Assembly (NCBI GenBank): GCA_943704415.1
Contig: CALSCO010001030.1
Location: 1-64,000, forward strand
Length of the DNA: 64,000 nucleotides
From: Parvularia atlantis
Taxonomy: Eukaryota
Direction of reading: 5' to 3'
Part shown: piece after piece, positions 51,517 through 54,500 of the stretch
How positions within the stretch are numbered: position 1 is the first letter of the stretch
Layout of the letters: the number at the start of each line of letters is the position of its first letter
Program-made: the position numbers and the translations under genes
The notes under the pieces: generated by a model
What the model was told of the DNA's origin: nothing
What the model saw: only the letters and a program-made list of their open reading frames with translations
Database searches by the model: none

Positions 51517-54500
51517 ATGGCCGACGGGCGCGGTTCGTCGCAAGGTCGCGGGCGCGCGCCGCACGCGGCGGGCTCACCGGGCGCCCCGCGCAGGCTCCGT
51601 GCGCAAGGCGCCATCGAGCGCCGTGCTCAACAAAAGCCAGATATCGTCGCCGCAGGACTTCACCCACGTCGCCCACGCCGGCAAGGAGGACGTCGCGCAG
51701 TACCTGGCCACGCTCAGCACCGACGCGGGCGACGGCGCCGGCGGCGGCGGCGAGGCGAGCGGGTTGGCGCCGGTGCGGTCGTTGAGCGGCGACTTTGGTG
51801 CGGGGTCGCCGTGCGCACGCGCGGATGGCGCGGTCGCGGGCCTGACGCGCGCCGCTCATTACAGTGCCGTACAAGACGCCCGGCGCAAGCACATCGACGG
51901 AGAACGTGCGCGACGCCGCCCGCCCGGACGGGATAGGCAAGCGCGCGAGCAACCTGACGTCGTGGCTGCCGTTTGGCGGGAGCAGCAGGTGCGCGTCGCG
52001 GGCGCGTGCAACGAGGGCCGGGATCGCGCCGACACGTGCGCCACAGCAGCGGGCAGGCCGCGAGCGAGGACCGCGCCACGAGCCCGCCCTCAACCTCGCC
52101 ACCGCAGCAGAGCCGCTTTGGCAACCGCCGGCGGGTGAGCGCGTCAGCGGCGTCGGTCAACGCGAGCGCGGCGCAGCCGCTGTCGCCCAAGGGCGGCAAG
52201 GCCACGACCGTCGCGTATCGCTCGTCGGCAGCCCTGCCACGGCCGCCCGTCCCCGCAGCCGCTGCCGCCGCTGCTGCTGCCGCCGCCACCGCTGCCGCGA
52301 CGACAGGCACGCACGCAGCCGCCGGGGTGTGCCGCGTCTGATCCGGCACGCGCGTGCGCAGGGGCCGCCGAGCCGCCGTCGATCCTGACCGAGAGCCGCG
52401 CCGTGGCGGCCAAGATCTGGATGGAGAACTACTTTGACGGGCTGATGCGCAGTGCGTGGCCGGGGGGCCGCCCCACGCACGCCGCACGTGGCCGCTGACG
52501 CCCGCCCGCGCAGCCGCGTACGACCGCGAGGTGCGCCGCGAGAAGCTCGAGAATGAGCTCGAGCGCAAGGGCGTGCCGGACGAGAAACGCGAGGAGCTGC
52601 GGCAGAGGCGCGTGCGCATCGCAGACATGACGTGGGCTGACGCGGCGCGACACAGGCTGCTGAAGAAGGAGACAGACTATATGCGCATGCGGCGCATGAA
52701 GATGTCAGTCGACTGCTTCGATGAGCTCAAGGTCGTTGGGCGGTACGGCGGCCTGTGCCGAGGTGTGTGGGGAGGCGCTGCCTGTGCTGACTGCGCCGCG
52801 CCTGGCCAGCGGCGCGTTTGGCGTCGTCAAGCTCGTGATGGAGAAGGACACGGGCACGCTGTACGCAATGAAGCTCCTGTCCAAGGCCGAGATGATCCGC
52901 AAGCGGCAGGAGGGTGCGCGCGCGCCTCACCCTGATCGTTAGTGCGGCGCGCCGCTGACGTGTGCAATCTGTGTATCGCCGGCCAACGCAGGGCACGTCC
53001 GTGCCGAGCGCGACCTCCTCGCCGCGGCGACCGACTGCAACCACATCGTCAAGCTGTTCTGCTCGTTTCAGGACAAGGTCCGCGCGCCACCGCACCACAG
53101 CCGCAGCCGTAACCCGCCGATGCGCGCGCCGCAGGAGAATCTGTACCTCGTCATGGAGTACATGGCCGGCGGCGACCTGCTGAACCTGCTGATGAAGATG
53201 GTGCGCGCCCGTGCATGGCTCCGCGCGAGCTGTGCTCACCCCCGCCGCGCCCCACAGGACATCTTCCCCGAGCCCATGGCGCGCTTCTACATGGCCGAGA
53301 TGGTGCTCGCGGTGGAGGAAGTGCACCAGCTGGGCTTTATACACCGCGACATCAAGCCTGACAACTTTTTATTCACGGCGGACGGGTGCGCGGCCGCTGC
53401 GTGTGCGGCCGAGTGCGCCATGTGACACACCGCGTCGTCGTCGCAGCCACATCAAGGTCTCCGACTTTGGCCTGTGCACGGGCTTCCACTGGGCGCACGA
53501 CTCCAAGTACTACGACACGCAGCGCAAGCTGAGCGCGCGCATCATGGAACGTCGGATGGATGAGGTGCGGGCGGAGGGGCGGCTGGCACGCGCACGTGCT
53601 TTGCTGAGTGGCACGCGCACAAAACGCGCGCGCAGCTACAAGCGTCGGAGACGAAGCTGCTCAAGAAGATCATCGAGGAGGACAGCGAGCCGCGCGACAA
53701 GATCCTGCTCTGGCGCAAGCAGAACCGCAAGCATGTCGCCTTCTCGGTCGTGGGCACGAACAACTACATCGCACCCGAGGTCCTGCTGCAGGTGCGTGGC
53801 GAGGCGCGTGGCCTGTCGTCGCGTGTGCACCGACCCACTCGCGCAGGCCGGCTACACGGGCCAGTGCGACTGGTGGTCGCTGGGCGTGATCCTGTTTGAG
53901 ATGCTTTGCGGCTACCCGCCGTTCTGCTCCGACTCGCGACAGAACACGAAGCTGCGCATCGTCAACTGGCGCCAGGTGCCGTGCGCGCGCGCCGGCGCAG
54001 ACGTCGCCGTGCCAACGCACTCCGTAGACGCTGCGCTTCCCACCAAAGCCCAAGATCTCGCCCGAGGCGCGCGACCTGATCGAACGGCTGATCTGCGACC
54101 ACCGCGACCGCATCGGCAACAACGGCGTTGAGGAGATCAAGGCGCGCGCGCGTGCACGCGCGCGCGGTGGCGCACGGGTGCTGACTGCGCCGCGCGCAGA
54201 ACCACCCGTTCTTTAGCGGCATCGACTGGGAGCGGCTGACGTCGTCGCAGCCGCCGTGGAAGCCGCTGCTCGCGTCGCCGACGGACACGTCGTGCTTCGA
54301 GGACATCGCGCCCAACAAGGCCGTGCCGGGGGCCGCGGGTGCGTGCGCCGGGGCAGCCGACCGACCGACGCGCTGCTCACGTGCACACACCAGGCGCGCC
54401 GCTGCCGGACGCCCCGCGCAGCACGGGCACGGCCGAGGAGGTCGCCGAGGACGAGTACACGTTCTACGGGTTCACCTACCGCGGCTTTTACAACGTCACG

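What the first reader, a model, noticed from the sequence alone, without database searches (positions are those of the whole stretch)
51517..52460. CRIB motif fused to a LATS/Warts-like kinase
Seen: [14 protein letters not shown] (51641-51682) fits the Cdc42/Rac-binding CRIB consensus ISxPxxFxHxxHVG. Hand-splicing through phase-compatible introns (one GC-AG, 52307-52361) links it without a stop to the MOB-binding region and kinase domain. [17 protein letters not shown] closely matches the LATS/Warts insert start rather than NDR1/2. Known: CRIB occurs on PAK, MRCK, MLK and ACK kinases; I do not know it on NDR/LATS kinases. Inference: direct small-GTPase input to a Hippo-pathway-type kinase.
Basis: partly seen in the sequence, partly recalled or inferred. 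Interest (0 to 1): 0.72.

Follow-up and report, generated by a model that had tools for sequence, protein, structure and literature searches.

The report
Hidden CRIB motif on LATS-sister kinases
This gene encodes a kinase whose branch is sister to the animal growth-control kinase LATS/Warts and carries, like most of its fungal relatives, a front-end motif that likely lets the polarity switch Cdc42 pull it to the membrane, a direct link that animal LATS proteins lack.

Summary
One spliced 2261-base contig (run X1) joins the CRIB exon to the kinase. A 17-exon model gives exactly 2261 bases and an open 717-residue protein. The motif keeps 7 of 8 CRIB consensus residues, but Pfam PBD scores it just under cut-off. 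It is not a one-off fusion. The kinase groups with an unnamed relative and a wide fungal clade (chytrids, Blastocladiomycota, Mucoromycota, Taphrinomycotina, Basidiomycota), and that clade is sister to holozoan LATS/Warts (99/97). The motif is in 129 of 150 clade N-termini, 0 of 86 LATS, 0 of 20 other NDR and 0 of 1410 shuffles. Its profile's best PDB hits are PAK4, N-WASP, PAK6 and WASP. Energetically critical CRIB residues are kept, as is the -5 hydrophobic residue tied to Cdc42 selectivity. The terminal VG is mostly replaced by a helix. The LATS-specific His, NF2-binding motif and PPxY are absent. Likely mechanism: Cdc42-GTP recruits the kinase for MOB and upstream-kinase activation. Ten paper searches found no description of the motif. 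Filamentous-ascomycete members lacking it look like PUK1/STK-21.

The parts
51449..54671 (+). Transcript extent (one spliced contig of 2261 bases)
   Evidence: the model length equals the contig length
51517..54632 (+). CDS of 17 exons, 717 aa: 51517-51532, 51594-51797, 51865-51988, 52047-52306, 52362-52451, 52514-52607, 52656-52742, 52810-52913, 52992-53077, 53135-53200, 53258-53385, 53447-53564, 53636-53791, 53847-53975, 54028-54141, 54200-54338, 54394-54632
   Evidence: 15 of 16 joints listed
51626..51628 (+). Leu17, five residues before the CRIB Ile; the position of ACK Leu-449, tied to Cdc42 selectivity
   Evidence: sequence; hydrophobic in 110 of 121 aligned copies; PMC5500802 passages
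51641..51682 (+). CRIB core [14 protein letters not shown] (aa 22-35), 7 of 8 consensus residues, Ala in place of Val
51683..51715 (+). Clade-specific segment after the CRIB core, predicted amphipathic helix
   Evidence: alignment A2, column counts; helix 38-50 at pLDDT about 60 in the model of relative P0001
51716..52411 (+). Low-complexity linker with a poly-Ala tract, predicted disordered; spans three introns
   Evidence: about 147 aa spacer against a clade median of about 110; pLDDT under 50 in P0001
52307..52361 (+).
   Evidence: not listed as a joint (repeat skipped); length arithmetic exact
52412..52700 (+). MOB-binding N-terminal regulatory region; Tyr225 (52430) at the LATS1 His646 position; Thr269 (52672)
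   Evidence: alignment; PMC5612953 passages
52717..54214 (+). NDR-type kinase domain with intact G-loop, [12 protein letters not shown] and DFG, an insert starting [17 protein letters not shown] (53463-53513), and activation-segment Ser496 (53744)
   Evidence: the relative P0001 matches Cbk1 and NDR1 best in the PDB
54462..54479 (+). Hydrophobic motif FYGFTY with Thr666 (54474)

Best explanation
This is an expressed NDR-family kinase of a clade sister to animal LATS/Warts with a conserved N-terminal CRIB motif, which likely binds GTP-loaded Cdc42 and would tether the kinase at polarity or division sites, where a MOB protein and an upstream kinase would switch it on. Shown: the spliced gene, intact catalytic and regulatory motifs, the tree position, and the motif's conservation and homology to PAK/WASP CRIBs. 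Inferred: GTPase binding, preference for Cdc42 over Rac, and action by localisation across a long flexible linker rather than by direct allostery. Also inferred: that this does the job NF2 binding does for animal LATS.
For: One spliced contig spans CRIB and kinase, and relative P0001 carries both in one ORF on a 1984-base contig. IQ-TREE with 44 rows: CRIB clade 100/99, LATS 100/100, the two as sisters 99/97; same topology under LG+C20 quick search, SH-aLRT 96. The motif scores 10 bits or more in 129 of 150 clade N-termini of 60 aa or more (104 of 125 outside the seed), 0 of 86 LATS, 0 of 20 other NDR and 0 of 1410 shuffles. The 8 best PDB hits of the profile are PAK4, N-WASP, PAK6 and WASP, E 1.4e-5 to 9e-4. 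Among aligned copies: I/V 138 of 138, P 138 of 138, F 121 of 138, H 142 of 142, H 141 of 141; the -5 position is hydrophobic in 110 of 121 and is preceded by a basic patch. In ACK the Ile, Pro and both His carry much of the binding energy, ACK lacks the penultimate Val, and a bulky -5 residue is proposed to mark Cdc42-specific effectors (PMC5500802 passages). Chytrids with 2-3 tandem copies pass the Pfam PBD cut-off (P0129, P0139, P0239, P0267). A LATS NF2-motif profile hits 0 of 150 clade members at 3 bits or more. Precedent for direct GTPase binding: Dictyostelium NdrC binds activated Ras (PMC4120859 passages).
Against: There is no binding data. The window's motif is under the Pfam cut-off and matches only the first third of the PBD model; alone it hits PAK and WASP only at E about 1. 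Across the clade the terminal Val and Gly are kept in only 2 of 132 and 3 of 129 copies, and the beta-hairpin that follows in PAK/WASP (recalled) is replaced by a predicted helix. The column counts come from profile hits, so they lean towards conservation. 21 of 150 clade N-termini lack the motif (some look truncated, others are filamentous ascomycetes). The Atlas gave only a 0.79 lead for the motif. The sister relation with LATS had only 65 in the 179-row FastTree, and no Dbf2/Sid2 or ROCK/MRCK row was available. Whether this organism has Cdc42 was not checked (no genome held).
Confidence: 0.62

Rival explanations
1. The motif is a working GTPase-binding site, but its main partner is Rac or another Rho-family GTPase, or it binds several without preference.
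For: The C-terminal half of the binding region differs from all solved CRIB effectors, and specificity determinants lie outside the core (PMC5500802 passage).
Against: The -5 hydrophobic residue is kept in 110 of 121 copies and is proposed to clash with Rac's Arg at position 174. The best PDB hits are WASP and group II PAKs, ahead of PAK1.
Confidence: 0.15
2. The CRIB-derived element plus helix was repurposed as an autoinhibitory, dimerising or scaffold-binding unit and no longer binds a GTPase.
For: The VG end is lost across the clade, while the following helix has its own conserved face (Ala 119, Leu/Phe 124, Trp 94 of 142 rows).
Against: The residues kept are those that contact Cdc42 in ACK. 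The AlphaFold model of P0001 gives the element low confidence (pLDDT 44-63), with a disordered linker to the kinase.
Confidence: 0.14
3. Binding to Cdc42 directly relieves autoinhibition of the kinase, as in group I PAK or WASP, rather than only localising it.
For: A conserved helix follows the CRIB core, where PAK1 and WASP have their inhibitory switch (recalled); the N-terminal position is PAK-like.
Against: The spacer varies from about 18 to 389 aa and is predicted disordered. The NDR activation sites are all intact. Tandem copies in chytrids fit avidity better.
Confidence: 0.07
4. The motif is a chance or vestigial match, or lies on another transcript.
For: Under the Pfam cut-off; one RNA-like run only.
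Against: One spliced contig; conserved across the clade and absent from shuffles.
Confidence: 0.02

Closest known systems
LATS1/2 / Warts (holozoan Hippo-pathway kinases)
   Same: Sister clade; similar insert start; MOB-binding region, activation-segment Ser and hydrophobic-motif Thr.
   Different: Has a CRIB, absent in 0 of 86 LATS N-termini. Tyr at the His646 site, no NF2-binding motif, no PPxY. Short N-terminus.
Fungal and Fonticula 'Warts' of Chen et al. 2020 (PMC7035326)
   Same: That paper's table counts one Warts each in Ustilago, Spizellomyces and Fonticula; a Spizellomyces protein and smut proteins sit in this clade. Fonticula Warts phosphorylates YAP and is membrane-localised in NF2-deficient cells (section 8).
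   Different: 'CRIB' does not occur in the main text. Its alignment figure is a picture that could not be read, so whether Fonticula Warts carries the motif or belongs to this clade is unchecked.
PUK1 (Fusarium graminearum) / STK-21 (Neurospora NCU03242) / An-Stk21
   Same: A third AGC/NDR kinase beside CotA and SidB (PMC3591445 table), with no distinct yeast orthologue. Sordariomycete clade members P0078 and P0095 end exactly before the subdomain IX WW, where PUK1 has its edited stop codons (PMC4817773). The identity is inferred from this, not from the PUK1 sequence.
   Different: These members are long-branched and lack the CRIB; the window's gene has genomic Trp codons there.
Dictyostelium NdrC
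   Same: NDR/LATS kinase with an N-terminal site that binds activated small GTPases directly (PMC4120859 passages).
   Different: Binds Ras/Rap through a region with no recognisable domain; 'CRIB' and 'Rac' do not occur in that text.
CRIB effectors PAK4/6, WASP/N-WASP, ACK, MRCK
   Same: Homologous CRIB core, basic patch and -5 hydrophobic residue.
   Different: Different kinase or no kinase. The terminal VG is mostly lost and a helix follows at once. MRCK, the nearest AGC kinase with a CRIB, carries it C-terminal to the kinase (recalled).

Membership tests
NDR/LATS family | AGC kinase domain with intact catalytic motifs | tested here: met
   the relative P0001 hits Cbk1 and NDR1 first
NDR/LATS family | MOB-binding N-terminal regulatory region before the kinase | tested here: met
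   aligns with STK38, LATS and Cbk1-like rows; MOB binding itself not tested
NDR/LATS family | Insert between DFG and APE, activation-segment Ser, hydrophobic-motif Thr | tested here: met
   77 aa DFG to YIAPE; AFSVVGT; FYGFTY
LATS/Warts proper (holozoan) | Falls inside the LATS clade | tested here: not met
   sister, not nested; AU p 1.9e-5 against grouping with LATS without the fungi
LATS/Warts proper (holozoan) | His at the LATS1 His646 position (bonds MOB1 Asp63) | tested here: not met
   Tyr225 (PMC5612953 passages); the choanoflagellate and ctenophore rows also lack it
LATS/Warts proper (holozoan) | N-terminal NF2-binding motif and PPxY | tested here: not met
   NF2-motif profile 0 of 150 clade members against 36 of 86 LATS at 3 bits (profile seeded by a recalled pattern); PPxY none in the window, 2 of 150 clade, 60 of 86 LATS
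Cbk1/Orb6/COT-1 and NDR1/2/Trc | Groups with Cbk1-like or STK38 kinases | tested here: not met
   separate clades; AU p 0.012 against CRIB clade plus Cbk1-like rows; the Cbk1 label of those rows comes from motif and position, not from names
Dbf2/Sid2 | Groups with Dbf2/Sid2 | not tested
   no Dbf2-like row among 345 stored proteins by a recalled motif; Aspergillus lists SidB apart from An-Stk21
CRIB/PBD effectors | Consensus ISXPXXXXFXHXXHVG | tested here: met
   7 of 8 residues in the window; 6 of 8 typical of the clade
CRIB/PBD effectors | Pfam PF00786 at gathering cut-off | tested here: not met
   19.4 against 21.3 bits; passed by 4 of 38 scanned proteins, all with tandem copies
CRIB/PBD effectors | Profile homology to solved CRIB effectors | tested here: met
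   PAK4 E 1.4e-5, N-WASP 1.9e-5, PAK6, WASP
CRIB/PBD effectors | GTP-dependent binding to Cdc42 or Rac | not testable with these tools
   needs a bench assay; the complex predictor was not available

The most novel reading that the evidence does not exclude
The Warts/LATS orthologue of the fungal side of the opisthokonts is an unrecognised direct Cdc42 effector kinase, and CRIB-based recruitment is the ancestral way of placing Warts at the cortex, replaced in holozoans by NF2 and WW-domain inputs, amplified to tandem CRIBs in chytrids, stripped in filamentous ascomycetes (the RNA-edited PUK1) and lost with the gene in model yeasts.
Probability: 0.3. Interest if true: 0.8.

Novelty: new variant of a known kind. 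Interest (0 to 1): 0.62.

Why it matters
NDR kinases are known to act upstream of Cdc42 (the Orb6-Gef1 papers seen in the listing). A CRIB on the LATS-sister kinase would put a Hippo-type kinase directly downstream of Cdc42. That would give a testable link between cell polarity and Warts, a candidate for how Warts reached the membrane without NF2, and a function to test for a conserved kinase of chytrids, mycorrhizal fungi and basidiomycetes. It likely escaped notice because the motif sits under the Pfam cut-off and model yeasts lack the gene. The value lies in the clade-wide pattern rather than in this one gene.

Tried and rejected
The CRIB exon alone as a query for longer proteins found nothing (4 candidates); the relatives came from kinase queries. 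The idea that the CRIB-plus-helix or the linker's SWLPF is the LATS NF2-binding motif was rejected: 0 of 150 clade members at 3 bits, and a PW-type pattern in 13 of 150 against 7% of shuffles. A complex prediction of the motif (alignment A2) with a Rac alignment (A1) was never run because the tool's queue was full, so there is no result either way. The AlphaFold model of P0001 gave no confident place for the motif, and its fold search returned only kinases. The Atlas named only generic NDR clusters. No Rho-family gene motif was found in the window, and no genome is held. Run X2 held a small share and only short unspliced pieces, so it is no evidence of expression or habitat. The careful mixture-model tree did not finish; the quick one is reported. 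Nine proteins without my DFG pattern were left out of the 179-row tree, and such proteins were left out of the counts; seven of them were rescanned and none had the motif. Classes come from best BLAST hits, and a few short proteins may be misfiled. Earlier findings of the scan held nothing. Sebe-Pedros et al. 2012 was not held.

Full report
Observation. The window is about 70% GC with short introns. The motif [14 protein letters not shown] lies at 51641-51682 and is the only strict CRIB match in six frames, with none in 200 shuffles. Three runs hold the stretch. Run X1 has one 2261-base contig that skips GT-AG and GC-AG introns from about 51449 to 54671. A 17-exon model gives an open 717-aa protein and a transcript of exactly 2261 bases. 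Fifteen of 16 joints are listed directly. Pfam PBD scores the exon at 19.4 bits, under its cut-off of 21.3.

Anatomy. In order: a short leader, Leu17, the CRIB core (aa 22-35), a predicted helix, a low-complexity linker, the MOB-binding region, a kinase with all catalytic motifs and the NDR insert, activation-segment Ser496, hydrophobic-motif Thr666 and a short tail. The protein has Tyr where LATS1 has His646, the residue that bonds MOB1 Asp63 (PMC5612953, passages). It has no PPxY and no NF2-binding motif.

Relatives. A kinase query found an unnamed protein, P0001 (54% identical over 559 aligned residues), followed mostly by fungal kinases. Many carry the same motif. A 25-row profile (A2) scores 10 bits or more in 129 of 150 clade N-termini of at least 60 aa (104 of 125 outside the seed), 0 of 86 LATS, 0 of 20 other NDR and 0 of 1410 shuffles (classes by best BLAST hit). 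Named carriers span Chytridiomycota, Blastocladiomycota, Mortierellales, Glomeromycota, Taphrinomycotina and Basidiomycota. Eight chytrid sequences have two or three copies. Only tandem-copy proteins passed the Pfam cut-off: 4 of 38 scanned. The precomputed lists show PF00786 for 0 of 120 and 2 of 120 hits. The architecture is therefore common but mostly unannotated.

Tree. With 44 chosen rows and 449 columns, IQ-TREE (LG+G4) places the window and P0001 (100/98) as sister to all fungal members (100/100). This CRIB clade (100/99) is sister to holozoan LATS, which includes a choanoflagellate and a Pigoraptor protein (99/97). The root was set on two rows taken to be plant-type NDR. A mixture-model quick tree agrees (SH-aLRT 96). 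FastTree on 179 rows recovered both clades but supported their sisterhood at only 65. AU tests reject joining the window to LATS without the fungi (p 1.9e-5) and joining the clade to Cbk1-like rows (p 0.012); these groups were named after earlier trees were seen. No Dbf2/Sid2 or ROCK row was available. The position as sister to all fungi fits a non-fungal relative of fungi, but one gene does not fix the organism's lineage. Gain on the fungal side and loss in holozoans cannot be told apart here.

Is it a real CRIB? The profile's eight best PDB hits are PAK4, N-WASP, PAK6 and WASP (E 1.4e-5 to 9e-4). Ile/Val, Pro, Phe and both His are nearly invariant, a basic patch precedes them, and the -5 position is hydrophobic in 110 of 121 copies (counts are of profile hits). 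In ACK these residues carry much of the binding energy, the penultimate Val is absent, and a bulky -5 residue is proposed to select Cdc42 over Rac (PMC5500802, passages). Against this, the terminal Val and Gly are almost never kept in the clade (2 of 132, 3 of 129; the window keeps the Gly), and a conserved helix follows at once. No binding was tested or modelled.

Mechanism. Most likely (0.62), Cdc42-GTP binds the motif and holds the kinase at the cortex through a flexible linker, and MOB binding and hydrophobic-motif phosphorylation then activate it as in other NDR kinases (established knowledge of the family). Animal LATS is brought to the membrane by NF2 (PMC7035326, section 8); this clade lacks that motif and has a CRIB instead. 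Fonticula Warts was membrane-localised in NF2-deficient cells, which would fit if it carries the motif; its sequence could not be read. Rivals: a Rac or broad partner (0.15), a repurposed non-GTPase element (0.14), direct allosteric activation (0.07), and artefact (0.02).

What is known. Fungal and Fonticula 'Warts' have been counted before (PMC7035326: passages, section 8, supplement 1 and rows of supplements 2 and 5). Direct GTPase binding to an NDR kinase has a precedent in Dictyostelium NdrC with Ras (PMC4120859, passages). Aspergillus and Neurospora have a third NDR kinase, Stk21 (PMC3591445, table passage). It is the orthologue of Fusarium PUK1, whose subdomain IX stop codons are edited to Trp and which has no distinct yeast orthologue (PMC4817773, section 4 and passages). 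Two Sordariomycete members of this clade end exactly before that WW, so PUK1 is likely the CRIB-less descendant. Ten full-text searches listed no paper on a CRIB in NDR/LATS kinases. I saw only listings for most hits. The word CRIB was absent from the main texts of PMC7035326, PMC4120859, PMC7761452, PMC5248491 and PMC3591445; PMC10959527 was seen as passages on other terms. Subscription papers, Sebe-Pedros 2012 and figure-only alignments were not seen and could mention it.

Verdict. A real feature and a new variant of a known kind: not a private fusion but the marker of a widespread LATS-sister kinase clade with a sub-threshold CRIB. Interest 0.62; 0.8 if it proves to be a direct Cdc42 effector and the ancestral state of Warts.

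Noticed in passing
window 52307-52361, 52608-52655, 54142-54199: Three of this gene's 16 introns have GC donors, a high share; it may be a trait of this genome.
   Followed up: partly
window 51280-51393 (- strand): An NADPH-dependent FMN reductase gene (PF03358) starts head to head with the kinase, about 120 bases between the start codons; a shared promoter is possible.
   Followed up: partly
P0239, P0267/P0334/P0335/P0337, P0129, P0139, P0331: Chytrid members carry two or three tandem CRIB-like copies; Entophlyctis helioformis and Batrachochytrium salamandrivorans have three.
   Followed up: partly
P0078, P0095, P0071: Two Sordariomycete members end just before the subdomain IX WW and one skips it, the pattern described for the RNA-edited PUK1/STK-21.
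   Followed up: partly
window about 54526-54560: A tail motif beyond the hydrophobic motif (MDPLQAAVL) is shared only with P0001 among 345 stored proteins and is predicted helical.
   Followed up: no
P0121, P0128, P0130, P0132, P0137, P0138, P0139: A second short conserved linker motif (R-S-F-K-A-L-I-x-P-W type) occurs in several chytrid members; function unexplained.
   Followed up: no
window 52244-52304: A poly-Ala coding tract in the linker, skipped as a repeat by the read tool.
   Followed up: no
window near 39419 (- strand): A Walker A motif in an ABC-transporter-like context.
   Followed up: no
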